From the NCBI GenBank assembly GCA_934633985.1, contig CAKTYU010000001.1:93500-157499 (forward strand): a DNA stretch of 64,000 nucleotides. Direction: 5' to 3'. The DNA comes from an uncultured Clostridia bacterium (GTDB taxonomy: Bacteria; Bacillota; Clostridia; Christensenellales; CAG-138). Made by a program: the position numbers and the translations under genes. Shown here in pieces: positions 2,955 to 11,014 of the stretch. Positions within the stretch are counted from its first letter, which is position 1. Every line of letters begins with the position of its first letter. Below the pieces are notes generated by a model that made no database searches, was not told the origin of the DNA, and saw only the letters and a list, made by a program, of their open reading frames with translations.

Positions 2955-4284
2955 CAGGGTAAACGAATACCTAAAAAGCGTATGCGCCGAGGTACGCTGG
3001 AGGCAGGCGCACGACGCGGTGCGGGAGGAGCTTGCCGCCCACATAGAGGATCAGACCGAAGCGTATATGCGCTCGGGCATGGAGAGGGAAGCGGCGGAGC
3101 GGAAGGCAGTAGAAAGCATGGGGAGCCCGGCGGAGACAGGACTTCGCCTCGACGCGAGCTACCGGCCCAAGCCCCAGCGGGGGCCGGTGATCATGCTGAC
3201 AGCACTGCTTATGATAAGCGCCGCCTGCAGATTTATGGAATATGGAAACGGCGGCAGCTCATTAGGCAAATTTATTATTGCCGCCTGTATAGGCTGCGGG
3301 CTGTTTGTCTGGCTGTATAATGCAAACCTTTACCGGCTGGCGGGGTTGTCATGGCAGGCTTATATTGCGGTGATAGCACTATGCCTTGCTGCACTTCCGC
3401 TGTGCTATTCCCGCGGACCCAGCGAGATGATAGTGCTTCAGACGGCTGCCATAACCATACCGGCGCTGTTTGCCGGCTGGCTGTATGTATGCAGGGGCTT
3501 TGGGGGGCTGCTCACAGGCGGGGCGATGCTGGTGATACCGATAGCGGGAATGCTTATGGCTCCATATACGGGAGCAGCCGTTAACGTCGCCGTTGCGTGC
3601 CTTGCGGTAATAGCGTTTGCCTCGGTATGGGGGCTTTGCGGAAAGAACAGGTGGCTGCCCATAGCGTTAAGCTGGGGCGGCGTGCTGTGCGGCGGCTATG
3701 GGCTGCTCAGGTCAAATGCGCGCTGGTGGCAGCGCGTTGCGGCGATGCTGCGCCCGGAGGCGTTTCCCGAGGAGTACAGTTACCAGATAAGGGTGATAAG
3801 GGATATGCTGCGCGCCTCGAGGCCCATAGGCCGCGGACAGGATACTGAAATGACGCGGTATTCCATGTTCTTTAAAAGGGACGGGGGCATAGGCCGCGAT
3901 GCGTATGTGGATTTCATGCTCACCACAATAGCCCACCGGTACGGCTGGGTGATCGCCCTGATAATAGCCGCGGTGCTGATAGGGCTCATAGCGATGCTGT
4001 TCTTTAAGGCGCTGAGGCTTACGAGCCTGTTCGGCAAAATCATGGGCTGCGGTATCTGCGCGTCGCTTTTGATGCAGGCGGTGCAGTACATGCTCGGCAA
4101 CTGCGGTATTGTGATAATGGGCTGGCTGCCGCTGCCATTTCTTTCCTACGGCAATACGTCGCTGGTGATGAATATGGCTATGGTGGGGCTGCTCTGCTCC
4201 CTGATGCGCTCCGACGGGCTCTATGCGGACAAGGAGGCAAAGCCCTTAGGCAGGCTCAGGCTGCGGCTGGAGTGGCAGGAATAA
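2944..4284 (+). CDS. Membrane protein: N-terminal PadR-associated helical (permease-prefix/HAAS-like) domain fused to a divergent FtsW/RodA/SpoVE (SEDS)-like polytopic domain
   Basis: 446 aa. The start overlaps the padR stop. The N-terminus VNEYLKSVCAEVRWRQAHDAVREELAAHIEDQ is typical of PadR-partner proteins. The C-terminus YVDFMLTTIAHRYGW...LPLPFLSYGNTSLVMNMAMVGLL resembles the SEDS C-terminal motifs. Confidence 0.6.
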   Translation: MPSDRVNEYLKSVCAEVRWRQAHDAVREELAAHIEDQTEAYMRSGMEREAAERKAVESMGSPAETGLRLDASYRPKPQRGPVIMLTALLMISAACRFMEYGNGGSSLGKFIIAACIGCGLFVWLYNANLYRLAGLSWQAYIAVIALCLAALPLCYSRGPSEMIVLQTAAITIPALFAGWLYVCRGFGGLLTGGAMLVIPIAGMLMAPYTGAAVNVAVACLAVIAFASVWGLCGKNRWLPIALSWGGVLCGGYGLLRSNARWWQRVAAMLRPEAFPEEYSYQIRVIRDMLRASRPIGRGQDTEMTRYSMFFKRDGGIGRDAYVDFMLTTIAHRYGWVIALIIAAVLIGLIAMLFFKALRLTSLFGKIMGCGICASLLMQAVQYMLGNCGIVIMGWLPLPFLSYGNTSLVMNMAMVGLLCSLMRSDGLYADKEAKPLGRLRLRLEWQE

Positions 4285-4324: not shown

Positions 4325-5530
4325 TTATTCAGCAAAGCTCGCCACGAGATCCACCAGCACGTCTGTTATCTTATCAAGGCTGGCCGCGGGTATCCATTCC
4401 CGCACGCCGTGGTAATTGTAGCCGCCGGTGGGCAGGTTGGGGCAGGGGAGCCCCGCCCATGAGAGCTGCGCACCGTCCGTTCCGCCCCGTATGGGCACGG
4501 TGCGGGTGGGTATGCTGTTCTTTTCAAAGGCGGCTATGGCCTTGTGGATGAGCTGAATATGGGGCTCTATCTTTTCCTTCATGTTGTAGTAGCTGTCCTT
4601 GACAGCGGCCACCGCGGTGCCCTCGCCGTAGCGGCGGTTTATCTCGGCGGCAAGGGCGGTAAACAGCGCCTTGCGGGCCTCGAAGCCCTTGGCGTCGTGG
4701 TCGCGGATGATGTAGCGGAGGGTGGCCTCGGTCACGCTGCCCTGCATATCGTGCAGATGGAAGAAGCCCTGATAGCCGCAGGTGTTCTCCGGCACCTCGG
4801 TCTTGGGCAGCATATCGTGAAACTCAATGGCGACGGCAGAGGCGTTTACCATTACGTCCTTTGCCTCGCCGGGATGTACGCCCACGCCGTGAACAGTGAG
4901 AACGGCGGAAGCGGCGTTGAAGTTCTCGTATTCTATCTCGCCTATGGGGCCGCCGTCAACGGTGTAGCCGAAGTCGCAGCCCAGGGTCTTTACGTCTATG
5001 CCCTCTGCGCCGCGCCCTACCTCCTCGTCGGTGGTGAATATGACATTTACTTTTCCGTGGGGCCTGCCGCTCTCCATGAGCCTTTCGACGGCTGACATTA
5101 TCTCCGCGACGCCCGCCTTGTCGTCGGCGCCGAGCAGCGTCGTGCCGTCGGTGACTATAAGCTCCTCGCCCACATGCTTTGAGAGGCCGGGGCAGAGGGC
5201 CTCGTTCATTACCACGCCGGATTCCAAGGTAAACTCGCCCTCCGGGCAGGTGATGACGGCGGGGCGGACGTTTTCGCCGGGGGCGTCCGGGGCGGTGTCC
5301 ACGTGGGCTATGAGCGCAATGGAGGGCGCTCCCTCAACGTTGGCGGGCAGCGTGCCGTATACGTTGCTGTTGGAATCAAAGGATATTTCCTTTAGGCCAA
5401 GCTCCTCCATCTCGCGGGCAAGCTCGCGGATAAGCTCCTTCTGACGCTCGGTAGAGGGGGAGGTCTCGGAAAAATCATCGGACGTGGTGTAGTATGTTAC
5501 ATAATGAAGAAAACGTTCCCTTGGGGTCAT
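4325..5530 (-). CDS. pepT: Peptidase T (tripeptide aminopeptidase, M20B)
   Basis: 401 aa. Contains the AHVDTAPD, GADDKAG and TTDEEVG motifs, and the N-terminal FLHYVTYYTTSD is typical of PepT. Confidence 0.9.
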   Translation of the reverse strand: MTPRERFLHYVTYYTTSDDFSETSPSTERQKELIRELAREMEELGLKEISFDSNSNVYGTLPANVEGAPSIALIAHVDTAPDAPGENVRPAVITCPEGEFTLESGVVMNEALCPGLSKHVGEELIVTDGTTLLGADDKAGVAEIMSAVERLMESGRPHGKVNVIFTTDEEVGRGAEGIDVKTLGCDFGYTVDGGPIGEIEYENFNAASAVLTVHGVGVHPGEAKDVMVNASAVAIEFHDMLPKTEVPENTCGYQGFFHLHDMQGSVTEATLRYIIRDHDAKGFEARKALFTALAAEINRRYGEGTAVAAVKDSYYNMKEKIEPHIQLIHKAIAAFEKNSIPTRTVPIRGGTDGAQLSWAGLPCPNLPTGGYNYHGVREWIPAASLDKITDVLVDLVASFAE

Positions 5531-5706
5531 AATATCCTCCCGAAAACAGTTTATTTTGTTCGCCTCAAAGGTTAGCGCATTTGCGGGGCAAAGTCAACCT
5601 TTTACAGCCCCGCCGCGGCATTACGCGGCCGCGGGGCGCCTCCTGACGGTATAAATATAAACGAGTATTGCATAAACACGGGGATATATTATTTTTTTAA
5701 AGGGTA

Positions 5707-5735
5707 TTGACAGTTCCGGAAACCCGGAGTAGAAT
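5707..5735 (+). promoter_or_regulatory. Putative sigma-A promoter of the ABC-transporter leader
   Basis: TTGACA (5707..5712), 17-nt spacer, TAGAAT (5730..5735). Confidence 0.6.
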
Positions 5736-5768
5736 GTAGCCAACATTTGAGAAAGGACGCGTAAGGGA

Positions 5769-5870
5769 ATGAATATGTTCGCTGCAATAAAGAACGCCGG
5801 CATCTATTACTATTACTTTTATGCCACAAGTAATGGTTGTTTGTGCTGCGCGTCGAAGGCGAACAGATAG
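5769..5870 (+). CDS. Candidate leader peptide with a Tyr/Phe run (MNMFAAIKNAGIYYYYFYATSNGCLCCASKANR)
   Basis: 33-codon ORF, too short for the track. AAGGGA lies just upstream, with ATGs at 5769 and 5775. Six consecutive aromatic codons (TAT TAC TAT TAC TTT TAT) occupy 5805..5822. The stop at 5868 is 19 nt before a terminator hairpin. Confidence 0.45.
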   Translation: MNMFAAIKNAGIYYYYFYATSNGCLCCASKANR

Positions 5871-5888
5871 AGCTTACGATGATAAAAA

Positions 5889-5927
5889 GGCCGCATGAGC
5901 AACCGCTCGTGCGGCTTTTTATATTTT
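5889..5927 (+). terminator. Intrinsic terminator inside the 5' leader of the ABC operon (attenuator)
   Basis: GGCCGCATGAGC-aacc-GCTCGTGCGGC followed by TTTTTATATTTT. It lies about 30 nt upstream of the SD (AGGAGG) of the 5959 gene. Confidence 0.7.
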
Positions 5928-5958
5928 AGACAATTATATTTTCAGGAGGAAAAGAAAA

Positions 5959-6978
5959 ATGAAAAAGACACTCGCTATACTGATGGCGGCGCTGATGCTG
6001 ACAGGCCTCACCGCCTGCAGCTCCGCACCCGAAGCTACCGCCGAGCCTGCCGCTACCGCAGAGCAGACCGAGCAGACCGCAGCCCCTGCGGAGGAGAAGC
6101 AGAGCTATACCGTGGGCATTTGCCAGCTTGTCCAGCATCCCGCGCTGGACGCCGCCACCCAGGGCTTTAAGGACGTGCTCACCGAGCAGCTCGGCGACAG
6201 CGTGACCATCGAGGAGGGCAACGCCTCTAACGATATCCCCACCTGCGCCACCATAGTGAACGGCTTCGTTTCGTCCGGGGTGGATCTTATAATGGCGAAC
6301 GCCACCCCTGCCCTTCAGGCGGCTGTGGCGGCTACCAATACCATACCCATACTGGGAACCTCCGTTACGGAGTACGGAGTCGCACTGAATATTTCCGACT
6401 TTTCCGGCACCGTGGGCGGCAATGTATCCGGCACCTCCGACTTAGCCCCTTTGGATCAGCAGGCGGCGATGGTAAAGGAGCTGTTCCCCGATGCAAAGAC
6501 GGTGGGCATACTCTACTGCTCCGGCGAGGCTAACTCCGTATACCAGGCAAACGTTGTGAAGGAATGCCTCGAGGCCGACGGCCTGACCGTAAACGTATTC
6601 ACCTTTGCGGATTCCAACGACGTATCCACCGTTGCAGCCAGCGCCGCCGCCGAGAGCGACGTGCTGTACATACCCACAGATAACACCGCCGCCTCCTGCG
6701 CCGAGGCCATAGCGGCCGTTACCGTTCCCGCCGGCGTACCAGTGGTAACGGGCGAGGAGGGTATATGCAAGGGCTGCGGCGTGGCCGCCCTGTCCATCAA
6801 CTACTACGACCTCGGCCGTACCACCGGCGAAATGGCGGTAAAGATACTCAAGGGCGAGGCCGATATATCCGAGATGCCCATAGAATACTTCCAGGGCCCC
6901 GTTAAGAAATTCAATAAGGACATGGCTGAAAAGCTCAACGTGACTATCCCAGAGGGATACGTTGCCATAGAGGATTAA
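5959..6978 (+). CDS. ABC transporter substrate-binding lipoprotein (ABC_sub_bind / COG2984-type family)
   Basis: 339 aa. Signal peptide with lipobox LTGLTAC. The IGICQLVQHPALD motif is typical of this uncharacterised SBP family. Confidence 0.8.
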   Translation: MKKTLAILMAALMLTGLTACSSAPEATAEPAATAEQTEQTAAPAEEKQSYTVGICQLVQHPALDAATQGFKDVLTEQLGDSVTIEEGNASNDIPTCATIVNGFVSSGVDLIMANATPALQAAVAATNTIPILGTSVTEYGVALNISDFSGTVGGNVSGTSDLAPLDQQAAMVKELFPDAKTVGILYCSGEANSVYQANVVKECLEADGLTVNVFTFADSNDVSTVAASAAAESDVLYIPTDNTAASCAEAIAAVTVPAGVPVVTGEEGICKGCGVAALSINYYDLGRTTGEMAVKILKGEADISEMPIEYFQGPVKKFNKDMAEKLNVTIPEGYVAIED

Positions 6979-7025: not shown

Positions 7026-7982
7026 ATGAACGCAGCGGTTTGTTTGGGGCTTCCCGGCATAGCCAACCTGATATCCAGAATGCCGGGCGGTATTGCCCAG
7101 GGAATAATTTGGGGCATAATGGCGCTTGGCCTGTACATCACCTTCCGGCTGCTGGATATTGCAGACCTGACGGTGGACGGCTCCTTCGCCACCGGCGGCG
7201 CAGTAGCCATAATGCTCATAACCTCCGGCTGCCCTGCATGGGCCGCGCTCATAGCGGCCCTTCTTGCGGGGACCGCCGCGGGGCTGTGTACCGGGGTGCT
7301 TCACACCCGGCTGGGCATTCCCGCCATACTTTCCGGCATACTCACCCAGTTTGCGCTGTATTCCATCAACCTCCGCATAATGGGCATGTCCGCAAACCGC
7401 TCCGCCAATCCCGATACCTTCAAGCTGCTCATCACCATGCGAAGCGTGCCTGAGGCCATACTTACGGGCGCTGTGATGGCTGTCGCCATAGTTGCGGCGA
7501 TGTACTGGTACTTCGGAACGGAGCAGGGTTCCGCGATCCGCGCCACAGGCTCCAACCCCAACATGAGCAGGGCCCAGGGCATAAACACCGACAACATGAA
7601 GCTCATCGGCCTTGCCCTCTCCAACGGCATGGTGGCCTTTGCCGGAGGGCTTATGGCCCAGTATCAGGGCTTTGCCGATGTAAACATGGGCAGGGGCTCC
7701 ATCGTTATAGGCATTGCCGCCATAATAATCGGAGAGGTTCTGTGCGATGCCGCCTTCCGCAAGGGCTGTGAGTTTTACATGAGGCTGCTGTTTGTGATAG
7801 TCGGAGGCATAGTGTACTACATCGTAATGGTGATAATACTGTGGCTCAAGCTTGATCCAAACGACCTGAAGCTTTTTACCGCCATAATAGTAGCCGTATT
7901 CCTTGCGGTGCCCCATATACAGGCGGAGCGAAAGAGCTCCTTCAAGATGGCGGGTAAGCGCAGCCTCAATGGAAAGGCCTGA
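7026..7982 (+). CDS. ABC transporter permease (branched-chain/sugar-type BPD_transp_2-like)
   Basis: 318 aa and polytopic. It sits between the cognate SBP and ATPase genes. Confidence 0.8.
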   Translation: MNAAVCLGLPGIANLISRMPGGIAQGIIWGIMALGLYITFRLLDIADLTVDGSFATGGAVAIMLITSGCPAWAALIAALLAGTAAGLCTGVLHTRLGIPAILSGILTQFALYSINLRIMGMSANRSANPDTFKLLITMRSVPEAILTGAVMAVAIVAAMYWYFGTEQGSAIRATGSNPNMSRAQGINTDNMKLIGLALSNGMVAFAGGLMAQYQGFADVNMGRGSIVIGIAAIIIGEVLCDAAFRKGCEFYMRLLFVIVGGIVYYIVMVIILWLKLDPNDLKLFTAIIVAVFLAVPHIQAERKSSFKMAGKRSLNGKA

Positions 7983-8000: not shown

Positions 8001-8795
8001 ATGCTGAAGCTGGACAATATATGTAAGACCTTCAATCCGGGTACAATAAACGAAAAAAAAGCGCTGCAGAACCTATCGCTGACCCTTAAGCCGGGCGACT
8101 TTGTAACGGTGATAGGCGGCAACGGCGCGGGCAAGTCCACCATGCTCAACGCCATAGCCGGCGTATGGCCTGTGGACAGCGGCTCCATAACCATCGACGG
8201 CATAAACGTCACGGGCGAATGCGAGTACAAGCGCGCCGCCTACATAGGCCGCGTGTTCCAGGATCCTATGCTGGGCACCGCGCCGAATATGCAGATAGAG
8301 GAAAACCTTGCGCTGGCAATGCGCCGCGGCAAGCGCCGCGGGCTGCGCTGGGGCGTCACAAAGGCTGAGCGGGAGCAGTACCGGGAAAGGCTGAAGGGCC
8401 TGGGCCTCGGCCTTGAGGACAGGATGACGGCAAAGGTGGGGCTGCTCTCCGGCGGCCAGCGGCAGGCGCTGACATTGCTAATGGCGTCGCTGCAAAGGCC
8501 GAAGCTGCTGCTGCTGGATGAGCATACCGCCGCGCTGGATCCCGCCACCGCCAAGAAGGTGCTGGACATATCCGACAGCATCATCAGGGAAAACGGTCTT
8601 ACCGCAATGATGATAACTCATAACATGAAGGACGCCATAAACCACGGCACAAGGCTCATTATGATGAACGAGGGGCATATAATACTCGACGTGGAGGGCG
8701 AAGAAAAGAAAAAGCTAACCAAGCAGCAGCTGATGGAAAAGTTCGCCGAGATAGCGGGCAAGCAGGTGGAATCCGATAGGATACTGCTGTCGTAA
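8001..8795 (+). CDS. ABC transporter ATP-binding protein
   Basis: Walker A GGNGAGKST, signature LSGGQRQ, Walker B LLLLDEHTAALD. Confidence 0.9.
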   Translation: MLKLDNICKTFNPGTINEKKALQNLSLTLKPGDFVTVIGGNGAGKSTMLNAIAGVWPVDSGSITIDGINVTGECEYKRAAYIGRVFQDPMLGTAPNMQIEENLALAMRRGKRRGLRWGVTKAEREQYRERLKGLGLGLEDRMTAKVGLLSGGQRQALTLLMASLQRPKLLLLDEHTAALDPATAKKVLDISDSIIRENGLTAMMITHNMKDAINHGTRLIMMNEGHIILDVEGEEKKKLTKQQLMEKFAEIAGKQVESDRILLS

Positions 8796-8796
8796 G

Positions 8797-9130
8797 CTTC
8801 TGCTCAGACAGAATAGGGGGCGCCGCCTAAAAAGCGGAGCCCCTTCAGTCTGTCGAAAAACCGTGGGGTTGTTAAGGGGCCGCAGCCCCTTAAGTTAATT
8901 CCGGCTTTGACGACATGTGCGTCAAAACGGATGAAAACCGGAGGTTTTCGCACTTTACGGGTTTTGCCGCCCGGGAACGAATGTGAGAGGCAAAACCCGC
9001 AAAAACTCGAAAAAGTGGTCTTTAGCCACTTTTTCGACACTCTGTAGGGCCCCGCCCGATAAAAGCGGGACCCCTTTAATATCGACATTTTTGCAGGGCA
9101 GCGTCACGCGCTGCCGAGCTTAAGGCGAAT
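8797..9130. repeat. Cluster of at least five consecutive imperfect hairpins (REP/MITE-like intergenic repeat array)
   Basis: Hairpins lie at about 8808..8862, 8870..8893, 8906..8928, 8960..9000, 9008..9036 (CGAAAAAGTGG/CCACTTTTTCG) and 9045..9075. A 37-nt block at 9001..9037 is identical to 14076..14112. The track ORF 8804..9088(-) is probably spurious. Confidence 0.7.
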
Positions 9131-9369: not shown

Positions 9370-10935
9370 CTAAAAGCTCCAGTGTATTTCCAAAGGCACC
9401 TCCCAGCTTCCGGGCGGGCGCTTTCCTATATATATGCGCTCTATCAGGGCTTCTACTGCGGCGCGGTCCAGCGATTCCAGCAGCAGCGGCAGCTTTTCCG
9501 GCTCCGGCGGGCGATACGCCCGCGCAAGCTCCGCCGCGCCGCTTGCAGCGGCTTGCGTTAGCCGCTGCTTTTCGGCGGAGATGCGCTTTAGGGCGTCTGA
9601 AAAGTCGGCCTCGCTCACGCGGCCCTCCGCCCTGTCCAAATAAAGACGCGCCAAGGCCGCGGAGCATGCCTCCACGCGCCCCTGAAGCCTTGATACGCGC
9701 TGGGATAAGTCCCGCGCCAGCTGCGGGCTGCCGCGCCGGAGATATAGCTCCTTCAGCATATTTTCATCGAGGCTTTCTGCGGCGATGCGGTTCGCCTCGC
9801 ACAGCACGGCCCTCTCCAGCCGCTTTACGGATATGAAGCCGCCGGGGCAGGCGTCCTTTGAAATATAGCGGCGGCTGCACCGAAGGTAGCCCTCGCCATG
9901 GCTCTTTGCGGAGCGCATGGGGCCCTTGCAGCAGGCGCAGTATACCCTGCCGGAAAAAGCGCCCGCCCTGTTGCCGGAAAAGGGGCGGGCCCTTTCGGAT
10001 ATGAGCTGCTGCACGCTCTGCCACAGCCTTTCATCTATTATCGCCTCGTGGGTGTTTTCCACCCTGAACCACAGCTCCGGCGGCCTTGGCACGCTGCGCT
10101 TGGTCTTGTAGGATGCGCTGCCGTACCTGCCCTGAACCATATTGCCGATGTAGACCTCATTTTTGAGCATACGGGATACCGTGCCGTACTGCCACAGCCC
10201 GCCGCCGGGGGAAGGTATGCCGCGGGCATTGAGCTCCCGGGCTATGGAGGTCTTTCCCCGGCCGAGCGCGAACAGCGAGAATATCTCCCGCACTGCGGCG
10301 GCCTTTTCATCATCTACTATGAGGCGTCCCTTACGGTGTGGGTCCTTGGCGTAGCCGTATGGCGCGGAGGAGCCTATGTGCAGCCCCAGCCTCCTGCGGC
10401 TGTCGAGCACGCTCTTTATGCTCTCAGACATATCCTCGAGGTACCACTCGTTCACGAGGCCGTTTATCTGGCGCGCCTTTTTGTTGCCGGGGTCGTCGGT
10501 GTCGCAGTTGTCCGCCACGCTCACGAAGCGTATGCCCCAAAGCGGGAAAAGGCCGTGTATGTACTTTTCCACCAGCTCTAACTCACGGGTAAAGCGGGAT
10601 TGGGTCTTACACAGTACTACGTCGAAGTTTTTTGCTTCCGCGTCCCGCAAGAGCCTGTTGAATTCCGGCCTGTTCCTGTCCGCACCGGCATAGTCGTCGT
10701 CGCTGTATATATCGTATATCTCCCAGCCCTGCGCGGCGGCGTACTGGGCGAGCAGCAGCTTCTGGTTCTGTATGCTTCCGCTGTCCGCGCCCTCCGCCCT
10801 GCCCTTGTCCTCCTCGGAGAGCCGGCAGTATATGGCGGCCCTCATGCGCCCCGCCTTTTGCACAGCATTTGCAGCCACCTTTCCGCCAGCAGCCTTTTGT
10901 CGGGAAGCCCGCCGCTTTTGAATACGCTTTTGCAT
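9370..10935 (-). CDS. Large serine recombinase (resolvase/invertase N-domain, recombinase domain and zinc-ribbon)
   Basis: Contains AAIYCRLSEEDK...SIQNQK...YSDDDYAGADRNRPEFNRLL...VVLCKTQSRFTRE (catalytic Ser region), then the recombinase domain, Cys pairs CACC...C and a C-terminal coiled coil. The stop is 6 nt from the terminal inverted repeat. The start is uncertain: the track's GTG at 10962 abuts the SD, so ATG 10935 or ATG 10845 is more likely. Confidence 0.9.
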   Translation of the reverse strand: MQKRIQKRRASRQKAAGGKVAANAVQKAGRMRAAIYCRLSEEDKGRAEGADSGSIQNQKLLLAQYAAAQGWEIYDIYSDDDYAGADRNRPEFNRLLRDAEAKNFDVVLCKTQSRFTRELELVEKYIHGLFPLWGIRFVSVADNCDTDDPGNKKARQINGLVNEWYLEDMSESIKSVLDSRRRLGLHIGSSAPYGYAKDPHRKGRLIVDDEKAAAVREIFSLFALGRGKTSIARELNARGIPSPGGGLWQYGTVSRMLKNEVYIGNMVQGRYGSASYKTKRSVPRPPELWFRVENTHEAIIDERLWQSVQQLISERARPFSGNRAGAFSGRVYCACCKGPMRSAKSHGEGYLRCSRRYISKDACPGGFISVKRLERAVLCEANRIAAESLDENMLKELYLRRGSPQLARDLSQRVSRLQGRVEACSAALARLYLDRAEGRVSEADFSDALKRISAEKQRLTQAAASGAAELARAYRPPEPEKLPLLLESLDRAAVEALIERIYIGKRPPGSWEVPLEIHWSF

Positions 10936-11014
10936 ATAGGTACTTTTTCCAAAAAACAACACCTCCCGTATATAGATATTACGGCGCGGCGGCGGTTATA
11001 ATACAGCCTGTGAT

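What the first reader, a model, noticed from the sequence alone, without database searches (positions are those of the whole stretch)
5707..5958. Candidate ribosome-mediated (leader-peptide) attenuator with a YYYYFY run upstream of an uncharacterised ABC importer
A good sigma-A promoter (TTGACA-17-TAGAAT) is followed by a 33-codon ORF, MNMFAAIKNAGIYYYYFYATSNGCLCCASKANR. It contains six consecutive aromatic codons, five Tyr and one Phe. Its stop lies 19 nt before a strong intrinsic terminator (5889..5927), which precedes the SD of the substrate-binding protein gene. This is the layout of classical leader-peptide attenuation (pheA/trp/his type). Firmicutes usually use T-boxes for this purpose, and no T-box sequence is visible here. 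From memory, transporters of this SBP/permease/ATPase family (trpXYZ type) have been predicted to import aromatic amino acids. A Tyr/Phe-sensing leader would fit that role and would suggest the substrate.
Basis: inference. Interest (0 to 1): 0.62.

Follow-up and report, generated by a model that had tools for sequence, protein, structure and literature searches.

The report
Tyrosine-sensing leader-peptide attenuator of tyrosine importer
A short upstream reading frame packed with tyrosine codons, followed by a switchable stop signal, most likely lets this gut Clostridia bacterium turn on a tyrosine uptake pump only when tyrosine runs short; I found no earlier report of this classical mechanism for tyrosine or for this transporter.

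Summary
Window 5707-5958 contains a near-consensus promoter. It also contains an SD-preceded 33-codon ORF (5769-5870) with YYYYFY at 5805-5822, and a strong intrinsic terminator (5885-5920 plus U-tract). These precede a PF04392 SBP / permease / ATPase operon. No T-box or other Rfam family matches.

The missing piece, an antiterminator, exists. GGUUGUUUGUGCUGC (5835-5849) pairs with the terminator's 5' arm and loop (5890-5904, duplex -19.9 kcal/mol). Without a ribosome, the same strand is sequestered in a hairpin with the Tyr codons (-23.3 kcal/mol).

Fifteen orthologous loci from other Clostridia species carry Tyr-run leader ORFs before a terminator. They fall into at least three unrelated RNA sequence classes that share the same 1:2 / 2:3 / 3:4 logic. 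In the window's class, the Tyr codons are in frame with the ATG in 11 of 11 leaders at five different spacings. The conserved downstream motif is read in any frame or lies after the stop.

The SBP's closest solved relative is the tyrosine-binding CD0873. Its two tyrosine-specificity residues are conserved in 79 of 79 orthologues.

Verdict: a well-supported new member of the leader-peptide attenuator kind. It is Tyr-specific, controls a transporter, and occurs in Clostridia. It has not been tested experimentally.

The parts
5707..5735 (+). Sigma-70/SigA-type promoter: TTGACA, 17-nt spacer, TAGAAT. The predicted transcription start is near 5742.
   Evidence: 11 of 12 consensus matches; sequence. 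A TTGAC(A/T)...TA(A/G)A(A/G)T promoter sits at the equivalent place in the orthologous leaders.
5751..5757 (+). Shine-Dalgarno sequence (GAAAGGA) of the leader ORF. An alternative AAGGGA at 5763-5768 could serve the in-frame ATG at 5775.
   Evidence: Sequence. An SD plus ATG is present in most orthologous leaders; L067 and L080 have the ATG about 10 nt after the -10 box, i.e. near-leaderless.
5769..5870 (+). Leader peptide ORF, 33 codons: MNMFAAIKNAGIYYYYFYATSNGCLCCASKANR.
   Evidence: Orthologous Tyr-run ORFs are shown. The peptide was never called as a gene in the 15-billion-protein collection.
5805..5822 (+). Regulatory codon run TAT TAC TAT TAC TTT TAT (5 Tyr, 1 Phe). This is region 1, the proposed ribosome stalling site.
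   Evidence: 0 of 5000 shuffles reach it. The codons are in frame in 11 of 11 class A leaders at five different ATG distances.
5792..5854 (+). 1:2 (anti-antiterminator) hairpin. The Tyr codons and upstream bases (5792-5818) pair with 5828-5854. The core is AUUACUAUUACUU with AAGUAAUGGUUGU.
   Evidence: -23.3 kcal/mol; z = -5.1 for the whole leader. The core hairpin is the RNAalifold consensus of 11 leaders.
5835..5849 (+). Antiterminator 5' strand GGUUGUUUGUGCUGC (region 2). It lies within the motif GTAATGGTTGTTTGTGCTGC, which is nearly invariant across class A.
5837..5842 (+). TTGTTT, a match to the NusG-dependent pause motif TTNTTT, directly 3' of the hairpin. The predicted pause is near 5847. 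This is inference only.
   Evidence: Sequence. The motif definition comes from bioRxiv 10.1101/2022.10.28.514324. It is kept in 8 of the 11 class A leaders listed.
5890..5904 (+). Antiterminator 3' strand GCCGCAUGAGCAACC (region 3). This is the 5' arm plus loop of the terminator.
   Evidence: duplex -19.9 kcal/mol; antiterminator structure -25.2 kcal/mol. Covariation is shown.
5885..5927 (+). Intrinsic terminator (regions 3:4). Stem 5885-5920, loop 5901-5904, U-tract to 5927.
   Evidence: -26.1 kcal/mol. Eight terminator pairs have compensatory changes among the orthologues.
5959..6978 (+). Substrate-binding lipoprotein (PF04392) of CD0873 type, with the tyrosine determinants E266 and Y282.
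7026..7982 (+). ABC permease (PF02653).
8001..8795 (+). ABC ATPase (PF00005).

Best explanation
This is a ribosome-mediated (leader-peptide) transcription attenuator that senses charged tRNA-Tyr. It controls a tyrosine ABC importer made of an SBP, a permease and an ATPase.

Transcription starts near 5742.

- OFF state, tyrosine plentiful: the ribosome reads through the Tyr codons and over the antiterminator strand (5835-5849) to the stop at 5868. Region 3 is left free, the terminator (5885-5920) forms, and transcription ends before the SBP gene.
- OFF state, no translation: the Tyr-codon region pairs with 5828-5854 (1:2 hairpin). This also sequesters the antiterminator strand, so the terminator forms.
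- ON state, tyrosine scarce: the ribosome stalls on the YYYYFY codons (5805-5822). This melts the 1:2 hairpin but leaves 5835-5849 uncovered. That strand pairs with 5890-5904 as soon as it is transcribed. The terminator cannot form, and RNA polymerase reads into the importer genes.

What is shown: all sequence elements, the mutually exclusive pairings, their conservation, and the tyrosine-type binding site.

What is inferred: actual stalling, the kinetic competition, and a possible hairpin plus TTGTTT (NusG-type) pause near 5847 that would synchronise the ribosome with the polymerase.
For: 1. Anatomy. Promoter, SD plus ORF with six consecutive aromatic codons, terminator and operon are all present.

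2. Alternative structures.
- The no-ribosome fold pairs the Tyr codons with 5828-5854.
- With region 1 masked and the 3' terminator arm not yet made, 5835-5849 pairs with 5890-5904. The duplex is -19.9 and the structure -25.2 kcal/mol. The 1:2 hairpin is -23.3 and the terminator -26.1 kcal/mol.
- With the ribosome at the stop codon, no antiterminator remains (-1.3 kcal/mol).

3. Conservation of the antiterminator.
- The same antiterminator is found in all 11 class A leaders analysed.
- 87.9% of cells are paired, against 37-48% when the partner is slid by 1-3 columns.
- Three pairs change on both sides, and nine change on one side while staying paired.

4. Translation signature.
- TAYTAC is in frame with the ATG in 11 of 11 leaders, at distances of 36, 39, 42, 45 and 48 nt.
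- The conserved downstream motif is read in frame 0, 1 or 2, or lies after the stop.

5. Independent re-invention. Class B (L026, L035, L036), L015 and L050 have unrelated RNA sequences. They still have an SD-ATG ORF with YYYYRYY, YYRYYY or YYYYYYY, and the same 1:2 / 2:3 / 3:4 logic.

6. Enrichment. Tyr-run windows are about 40-fold enriched upstream of the SBP genes, and 0 of 5000 shuffles reach the observed run.

7. Substrate match.
- The closest solved structure is 6HNI, C. difficile CD0873 (E = 1.8e-50). It was shown to bind tyrosine, with Glu-263 and Tyr-279 as specificity residues (PMC6816091).
- These align to E266 and Y282 in the window protein. They are conserved in 79 of 79 orthologues, whereas the Trp binder 3LFT has Ala and Gln at these positions.

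8. No competing known RNA element is present.
Against: - There are no experimental data of any kind. The organisms carrying the window's leader class are uncultured MAGs.
- At equilibrium the terminator is always in the minimum-energy fold, even with the ribosome masked. The switch therefore has to be kinetic, as it is in E. coli trp.
- In some class A leaders (L081, L034, L065) the minimum-energy fold without a ribosome already shows the antiterminator. The 'no translation = OFF' step is therefore not universal.
- In L065 the stop codon lies 9 nt upstream of the motif, too far for a terminating ribosome to cover the antiterminator strand.
- The 20-nt motif is more invariant than pairing alone requires. 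It is the same between leaders whose SBPs are only about 59% identical, which may mean an extra function.
- Transcription and translation are thought to be poorly coupled in Firmicutes (my own knowledge), so a pause would be needed. The TTGTTT match is only suggestive.
- Many orthologues (about 50 of 76 loci) have no leader at all.
Confidence: 0.8

Rival explanations
1. The conserved hairpin plus GUAAUGGUUGUUUGUGCUGC element is a riboswitch-like or protein- or tRNA-binding RNA. A trans-acting factor would choose between antiterminator and terminator. On this view the short ORF and its Tyr codons are a by-product of the UAUUAC stem sequence.
For: The 20-nt motif is nearly invariant across distant lineages whatever the reading frame. 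That is more conservation than a simple antiterminator needs. The Tyr codons UAUUAC form one strand of a conserved hairpin.
Against: - No Rfam family, including T-box, matches here or in the orthologues.
- Extra Tyr codons lie outside the hairpin, for example UAU UAU UAU UAC upstream in L067 and L080.
- An SD plus ATG is present, and the Tyr codons are in frame in 11 of 11 leaders at five spacings.
- Sequence-unrelated leaders (class B, L015, L050) share only the Tyr-run ORF and the three-way pairing logic.
Confidence: 0.08
2. The element is an unregulated, leaky terminator or insulator downstream of a strong promoter. The ORF is then a chance reading frame with no sensing role.
For: The terminator dominates every equilibrium fold. 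Many orthologous operons lack any leader, so the transporter can work without it.
Against: - The Tyr run is not reached in 5000 shuffles.
- The Tyr-run ORF recurs in 15 species-level loci in at least three RNA classes.
- The antiterminator is conserved with covariation.
Confidence: 0.05
3. The attenuator works as described, but it reports phenylalanine, or aromatic amino acids and translation speed in general, rather than tyrosine specifically.
For: - One to five Phe codons accompany the Tyr codons in every class A leader.
- In the C. glutamicum aroR leader (Phe-Tyr-Phe), only Phe limitation induced expression (review PMC11802643).
- A relative of the SBP family binds Phe (3LKV, as described in PMC6816091).
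Against: - Tyr codons outnumber Phe in the window's run (5 to 1) and in L067 and L080 (6 Tyr against 1-2 Phe). Class B, L015 and L050 have 5-7 Tyr in their runs.
- The SBP carries the Glu that hydrogen-bonds the tyrosine hydroxyl group, in 79 of 79 orthologues.
Confidence: 0.12
4. The ORF encodes a functional small Cys-rich peptide (conserved ...SNGCLCC...), and the terminator merely ends its transcript.
For: SNGCLCC is identical in the WIN, L001, L002 and L099 peptides. L034 has SNGRLCC.
Against: The same nucleotides lie after the stop codon or in another frame in L009, L065, L067 and L080, so the conservation is at the RNA level. The peptides are not in the protein collection, and peptide lengths vary from 15 to 33 aa.
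Confidence: 0.02

Closest known systems
E. coli pheL-pheA and pheM-pheST leader-peptide attenuators, and trpL-trpEDCBA
   Same: A short leader ORF with a run of codons for the cognate aromatic amino acid. Regions 1:2, 2:3 and 3:4 pair in mutually exclusive ways. An intrinsic terminator sits before the first structural gene. The antiterminator is weaker than the terminator, so the choice is kinetic.
   Different: The codons are Tyr, and I found no report of a Tyr-run leader in the held library. The target is an uptake system, not a biosynthetic operon or a tRNA synthetase gene. The host is Clostridia, not Proteobacteria. There is no sequence similarity and no Rfam leader family hit.
Corynebacterium glutamicum aroR leader upstream of aroF (Neshat et al. 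2014, as summarised in PMC11802643)
   Same: The leader peptide contains Tyr and Phe codons and controls an aromatic amino acid gene by ribosome stalling.
   Different: aroR has only Phe-Tyr-Phe and reportedly responds to Phe, not Tyr. Here there are 5 Tyr and 1 Phe in a row. The target is a transporter and the phylum is different.
Histidine leader-peptide attenuators predicted in Firmicutes (B. cereus group hisS/hisZ, PMC2965389; Peptostreptococcaceae, including C. difficile, and Erysipelotrichales his operons, PMC9413887)
   Same: Classical leader-peptide attenuation in Firmicutes, where T-boxes usually do this job. These were also found by comparative genomics and appear to have arisen independently in several lineages.
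   Different: His codons and biosynthetic or tRNA-synthetase targets there. Here Tyr codons and an ABC importer, in Oscillospirales, Christensenellales and Lachnospiraceae.
T-box-controlled trpXYZ of Streptococcus (S. suis TrpX, PMC9382623)
   Same: A homologous ABC importer (PF04392 SBP, PF02653 permease, ATPase). It is regulated by premature termination that responds to the charging of the cognate tRNA.
   Different: The sensor there is a 461-nt Trp T-box that binds tRNA directly. Here it is a leader of about 185 nt (predicted start to end of the U-tract) read by the ribosome, with no T-box match. The substrate there is Trp. The window SBP scores below the TrpX equivalog cut-off and has Tyr where the Trp-specific Gln sits.
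C. difficile CD0873 tyrosine-binding lipoprotein (PDB 6HNI, PMC6816091)
   Same: It is the closest solved relative of the SBP (E = 1.8e-50). The Tyr-specificity residues Glu-263 and Tyr-279 are conserved as E266 and Y282.
   Different: This concerns only the protein. No leader-peptide control of CD0873 was found in the papers read. The two are related over residues 42-329 of the window protein, but percent identity was not computed.

Membership tests
Ribosome-mediated (leader-peptide) transcription attenuator | A short translatable ORF (SD plus start codon) in the 5' leader | tested here: met
   GAAAGGA-N11-ATG at 5769 (or AAGGGA-N6-ATG at 5775); 33 codons. An SD plus ATG is present in most orthologues; L067 and L080 are near-leaderless.
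Ribosome-mediated (leader-peptide) transcription attenuator | A cluster of codons for the sensed amino acid within the ORF, conserved in orthologous leaders | tested here: met
   YYYYFY at 5805-5822. 0 of 5000 shuffles reach it. Tyr runs occur in 15 orthologous loci, always in frame.
Ribosome-mediated (leader-peptide) transcription attenuator | An intrinsic terminator between the leader ORF and the first structural gene | tested here: met
   5885-5920 plus U-tract, -26.1 kcal/mol. It is conserved with 8 compensatory pairs.
Ribosome-mediated (leader-peptide) transcription attenuator | An antiterminator (2:3) that is mutually exclusive with the terminator | tested here: met
   5835-5849 pairs with 5890-5904, duplex -19.9 kcal/mol. 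It is present in all 11 class A leaders analysed. 87.9% of cells are paired against 37-48% for slid controls, and 3 pairs show compensatory changes.
Ribosome-mediated (leader-peptide) transcription attenuator | A 1:2 pairing that includes the regulatory codons, so that ribosome position decides whether region 2 is free | tested here: met
   Met in the window: 5792-5818 pairs with 5828-5854 at -23.3 kcal/mol, and masking region 1 releases the antiterminator. The core hairpin is the RNAalifold consensus. In L081, L034 and L065 the hairpin does not cover the antiterminator strand in the minimum-energy fold.
Ribosome-mediated (leader-peptide) transcription attenuator | The stop codon is placed so that a non-stalled ribosome blocks region 2 | tested here: met
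   In the window the ORF runs through 5835-5849 and stops at 5868. With the ribosome at the stop, no antiterminator remains. The same holds in 10 of 11 class A leaders. It does not hold in L065.
Ribosome-mediated (leader-peptide) transcription attenuator | Read-through responds to charging of the cognate tRNA | not testable with these tools
   This needs reporter assays, Term-seq or ribosome profiling under Tyr limitation.
T-box leader (RF00230) | [quoted passage not shown] | tested here: not met
   No hit at gathering threshold in the window. No T-box hit up to E = 10 in 5531-5980. No hit in the orthologous leaders, although the model does find T-boxes elsewhere in L010 and L050.
Rfam amino-acid leader families (Thr_leader and the other curated leader families in Rfam 15) | Covariance-model score at or above the family's gathering score | tested here: not met
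   0 families at gathering threshold. The only leader-family hits in the permissive scan are Thr_leader at 14.6 bits (gathering 55) and ylbH at 13.3 bits (gathering 50).
TrpX tryptophan ABC substrate-binding protein (NCBIfam NF041285, equivalog) | Score at or above the curated cut-off, and the Trp-type binding residue (Gln at the SP1069 Gln-284 position) | tested here: not met
   235.4 bits against a cut-off of 390. The position holds Tyr (Y282), as in the Tyr and Phe binders (PMC6816091).
CD0873-type tyrosine-binding SBP (PF04392) | PF04392 fold family, plus Glu at the CD0873 Glu-263 position and Tyr at the Tyr-279 position | tested here: met
   PF04392 at 198 bits. 6HNI is the best PDB hit. 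E266 and Y282 are conserved in 79 of 79 orthologues. Actual ligand binding was not tested.

The most novel reading that the evidence does not exclude
Gut Clostridia (Oscillospirales, Christensenellales, Lachnospiraceae) have evolved tyrosine-sensing leader-peptide attenuators at least three times independently to control CD0873-type tyrosine importers. The window's class contains a built-in hairpin plus TTNTTT NusG-type pause module. That module holds RNA polymerase near 5847 until the ribosome arrives. It would explain both the near-invariance of the 20-nt motif and how classical attenuation can work in a phylum thought to have uncoupled transcription and translation.
Probability: 0.3. Interest if true: 0.75.

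Novelty: new member of a known kind. Interest (0 to 1): 0.58.

Why it matters
1. It would be the first tyrosine-specific leader-peptide attenuator that I could find. The held library has no paper combining tyrosine codons, a leader peptide and a terminator. The closest case, C. glutamicum aroR, reportedly responds to Phe, not Tyr.

2. It adds a clear, comparatively supported case of classical attenuation in Firmicutes, where T-boxes are the rule. It suggests convergent origin in several RNA classes.

3. Two independent lines, regulatory codons and binding-site residues, assign tyrosine as the substrate of a widespread and poorly annotated ABC importer family in abundant, mostly uncultured gut Clostridia. 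Tyrosine uptake feeds p-cresol and other phenolic metabolite production in the gut (PMC6816091).

4. The motif and the leader ORFs are simple to search for. They could be turned into an Rfam-style family and an annotation rule.

Tried and rejected
- Rfam scans. I ran the whole window at gathering thresholds, 5531-5980 at E up to 10, and 32 related loci at gathering thresholds. Nothing matched in any leader. The trpB-motif hit at 25 bits is essentially the terminator hairpin.
- T-box control of leaderless orthologues. I looked for this as indirect substrate evidence and found none upstream of the SBP genes. The L010 T-box is on the opposite strand, and the L050 T-box is downstream of the operon.
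- Equilibrium folding with a masked ribosome. The terminator is always retained, so this approach alone could not show the switch. Folding without the 3' terminator arm, a co-transcriptional view, was needed.
- Metagenome scan for the 19-mer GTAATGGTTGTTTGTGCTG. It gave 64 loci. Most were near-identical copies of four known leader types (WIN, L002, L034 and L099), always before the same SBP gene. The rest were chance hits inside coding regions. No new regulon member was found.
- Contigs encoding four more distant SBP homologues. One carried the same leader as the window type. Three proteins had no leader at all.
- Exact look-up of four leader peptides in the protein collection. None was present.
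- A YYYYYY hit in L076. It proved to be the reverse strand of another gene's Asp/Asn-rich tail.
- Functional-peptide reading of the SNGCLCC tail. Rejected, because the same nucleotides are untranslated or in another frame in four leaders.
- Literature searches for a prior description: trpXYZ; CD0873; 'Tyr codons' with 'leader peptide'; and attenuation in Firmicutes or Clostridia. No report of a Tyr leader was found.
Full report
**1. The observation**

- TTGACA (5707-5712), a 17-nt spacer and TAGAAT (5730-5735) match 11 of 12 consensus positions. This is the best promoter-like site between 5400 and 9400.
- An ORF at 5769-5870 encodes MNMFAAIKNAGIYYYYFYATSNGCLCCASKANR.
- It is preceded by GAAAGGA (5751-5757). 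An in-frame ATG at 5775 with AAGGGA 6 nt upstream is an alternative start.
- Codons 13-18 (5805-5822) are TAT TAC TAT TAC TTT TAT.
- The stop (5868-5870) is followed by a 16-pair terminator hairpin (5885-5920, loop 5901-5904) and a U-tract to 5927.
- Then come AGGAGG (5944-5949) and the ATG of the next gene (5959).

The run is not a composition effect. None of 5000 dinucleotide-preserving shuffles of 5736-5884 gave an ATG ORF with 5 or more consecutive aromatic codons, or 5 or more Tyr in 7 codons.

**2. Context**

- The downstream genes are a PF04392 substrate-binding lipoprotein (5959-6978), a PF02653 permease (7026-7982) and an ABC ATPase (8001-8795).
- Upstream, on the other strand, lies an M20 peptidase gene (4325-5530), so 5531-5958 is a divergent regulatory region.
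- The best protein relatives come from gut metagenomes. One is named Christensenellales bacterium, and the closest species-level genome is an Acutalibacteraceae MAG.

**3. Known RNA elements are absent**

- Rfam 15 at gathering thresholds finds nothing in the 64-kb window.
- A permissive scan of 5531-5980 (E up to 10) returns no T-box. Its best hit is the trpB motif at 25 bits against a gathering score of 59, and that alignment is essentially the terminator hairpin.
- Thirty-two related loci were scanned as well. No family matches any of the leaders, although the same scan does detect T-boxes elsewhere in L010 and L050.

**4. Comparative evidence for a translated Tyr-codon leader**

An alignment of SBP orthologues was used to fetch 80 species-level loci. 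I located the SBP start codons and searched the upstream 500 nt.

Fifteen loci carry a short ORF with a Tyr run followed by a terminator. Most have an SD before the ATG.
- Class A has the same RNA motif as the window: L001, L002, L007, L009, L034, L039, L056, L065, L067 and L080. Metagenomic variants L081 and L099 also belong here.
- Class B is L026, L035 and L036, with the peptide MASKRHFSYYYYRYYSSVS or a close variant.
- L015 has ...SYYRYYYAHFAE.
- L050 has ...HAYYYYYYYEF...

Windows with 4 or more Tyr in 7 codons occur 15 times in 23 kb of upstream sequence. They occur 19 times in about 1.19 Mb elsewhere. Of those 19, only two have an in-frame ATG upstream. One lies inside a 390-codon ORF, and the other (L076) is the reverse strand of another ORF's tail.

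The reading-frame comparison in class A is the strongest evidence.
- The TAYTAC pair is in frame with the ATG in 11 of 11 leaders, although the ATG-to-TAYTAC distance takes five values (36, 39, 42, 45 and 48 nt).
- The strongly conserved downstream motif GTAATGGTTGTTTGTGCTGC is read in frame 0, 1 or 2, or lies behind the stop codon, as in L009, L065, L067 and L080.

So the Tyr codons are constrained as codons, and the motif is constrained as RNA. This also rules out a functional SNGCLCC peptide.

**5. The switch**

- The minimum-energy fold of the leader (z = -5.1) pairs the Tyr-codon region with 5828-5854 and forms the terminator.
- Masking the bases under a ribosome whose A site is on any of the aromatic codons, and folding only what has been transcribed before the 3' terminator arm, gives a different structure. 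GGUUGUUUGUGCUGC (5835-5849) pairs with GCCGCAUGAGCAACC (5890-5904), which is the 5' arm and loop of the terminator.
- Energies in kcal/mol: duplex -19.9, whole antiterminator -25.2, 1:2 hairpin -23.3, terminator -26.1.
- With the ribosome at the stop codon, nothing competes with the terminator.
- The same antiterminator appears in all 11 class A leaders analysed, although their terminators differ in sequence.
- On a gap-free alignment of the two strands, 87.9% of cells pair, against 37-48% when the partner is slid by 1-3 columns. Three pairs change on both sides (UA to CG, UA to AU, GC to AU), and nine change on one side only while staying paired. One caveat applies: the alignment was anchored on one predicted pair.
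- RNAalifold on the full leaders returns the Tyr-codon hairpin and the terminator as the consensus. The terminator has eight compensatory pairs.
- Class B, L015 and L050 have unrelated sequences, but the logic is the same. Region 2 (for example GGCGAUAG in class B) is complementary both to the Tyr-codon region and to the terminator's 5' arm.

**6. Substrate**

- The closest solved structure is 6HNI/6HNJ/6HNK, C. difficile CD0873 (E = 1.8e-50).
- That protein was crystallised with tyrosine bound and is stabilised specifically by tyrosine. Glu-263 hydrogen-bonds the tyrosine hydroxyl group. Tyr-279 excludes tryptophan. The Trp binder SP1069 (3LFT) has Ala and Gln at these positions (PMC6816091).
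- These positions are E266 and Y282 in the window protein, and they are Glu and Tyr in 79 of 79 orthologues.
- The protein scores 235 bits on the NCBIfam TrpX equivalog model, whose cut-off is 390.
- The regulated genes therefore most likely import tyrosine, which matches the codons of the leader.

**7. Mechanism, and what is not shown**

The elements, their exclusivity and their conservation are shown. Stalling, the kinetic choice and the physiological response are inferred.

Weak points:
- The terminator wins at equilibrium.
- In L081, L034 and L065 the hairpin does not sequester the antiterminator strand in the minimum-energy fold. In those leaders 'no translation' may mean ON rather than OFF.
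- In L065 the stop codon is too far upstream for a terminating ribosome to cover the antiterminator strand.
- About 50 of 76 orthologous loci have no leader at all.
- The 20-nt motif is more invariant than pairing requires.

A possible reason for the last point, which is inference only, is that TTGTTT (5837-5842) directly follows the hairpin. It matches the NusG-dependent pause motif -11 TTNTTT -6 of Gram-positive bacteria (bioRxiv 10.1101/2022.10.28.514324; T-rich non-template contacts are described in PMC6851288). That would place a pause near 5847, about 10 nt after the hairpin. The geometry resembles the pause hairpin that synchronises ribosome and polymerase in E. coli trp. The motif is intact in 8 of the 11 class A leaders listed.

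**8. Comparison with what is known**

- The mechanism is that of pheL, pheM and trpL in E. coli.
- Leader-peptide attenuation has been predicted in Firmicutes only for histidine genes (PMC2965389; PMC9413887).
- The homologous Streptococcus trpXYZ importer is controlled by a Trp T-box (PMC9382623).
- The only leader with Tyr codons that I found is C. glutamicum aroR (Phe-Tyr-Phe), which reportedly responds to Phe and not Tyr (PMC11802643).
- Searches for tyrosine codons with leader peptides, and for attenuation in Clostridia, returned no description of this element.
- The leader peptides are absent from a 15-billion-protein collection.

I therefore rate this as a new member of a known kind: Tyr-specific, controlling a transporter, in Clostridia, and recurring in several sequence classes.

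**9. Verdict**

Confidence is 0.8 that this is a Tyr-sensing ribosome-mediated attenuator of a tyrosine importer. Interest is moderate to high for specialists in RNA regulation and for gut-microbiome annotation.

Noticed in passing
L003, L005, L011, L012, L021, L022, L023, L057, L060, L073: about 70-270 nt upstream of the SBP start (for example L057 about 3634-3739; L023 about 3764-3866): A third leader type, 'class C', precedes orthologous SBP genes in Oscillospiraceae, including the cultured Oscillibacter valericigenes Sjm18-20. Eight of the ten have a clear SD before the ATG (not L003 or L021). The ORF is 31-57 codons with a conserved S-[YF]-[YF]-x-[FY] ... [CR]-[FY]-A-[GD]-R-[YF]-[FY] pattern. 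In most of them a G+C-rich hairpin (GGUCYGC-UWU-GCRGGCC) has a 3-nt loop that is an in-frame Tyr or Phe codon, and its stem covaries; L022 and L023 differ. A strong terminator follows. No Rfam family matches. I did not resolve whether this is a Tyr/Phe attenuator with a different architecture.
   Followed up: partly
L050 7272-7516 (+); L010 3666-3862 (-): Bona fide T-boxes (118.7 and 98.6 bits) lie next to the transporter operons but control other genes. In L050 the T-box precedes a 353-aa ORF downstream of the operon. In L010 it serves a divergent gene. These lineages therefore use T-boxes, just not for this importer. The specifier codons were not determined.
   Followed up: partly
L146 about 880-1200; L147, L149, L150 about 1050-1200: Close orthologues of the SBP (71-77% identity) have no leader ORF and no terminator. 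In L146 the SBP gene directly follows an HD-domain gene. In L147, L149 and L150 there is only a promoter and a short 5' UTR. The attenuator is therefore patchy even among near relatives.
   Followed up: partly
L026 and L036 (two contigs of MAG JAIKVS01): One Oscillospiraceae MAG carries two copies of the SBP gene. Each has the same class B leader peptide, MASKRHFSYYYYRYYSSVS. This could be a duplication or an assembly split.
   Followed up: no
window 9370-10962 (-) and 8804-9088 (-): A large serine recombinase (Resolvase, Recombinase and Zn_ribbon_recom domains) lies directly downstream of the ABC operon. A 94-aa ORF without any Pfam hit and a terminator-like hairpin (9007-9037, minus strand) lie between them. 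This may mark the edge of a mobile element.
   Followed up: no
window 5837-5842 and the same position in L081, L001, L002, L099, L009, L067, L080: TTGTTT sits immediately 3' of the Tyr-codon hairpin and matches the TTNTTT NusG-dependent pause motif. This could explain why the motif is invariant across lineages whose SBPs are only about 59% identical.
   Followed up: partly
L145 about 880-1200: An SBP only 79% identical to the window's is preceded by a leader nearly identical to the common metagenomic variant of the window's leader (L081 type). The leader is therefore more conserved than the protein it controls. It could also have moved with the promoter region.
   Followed up: no
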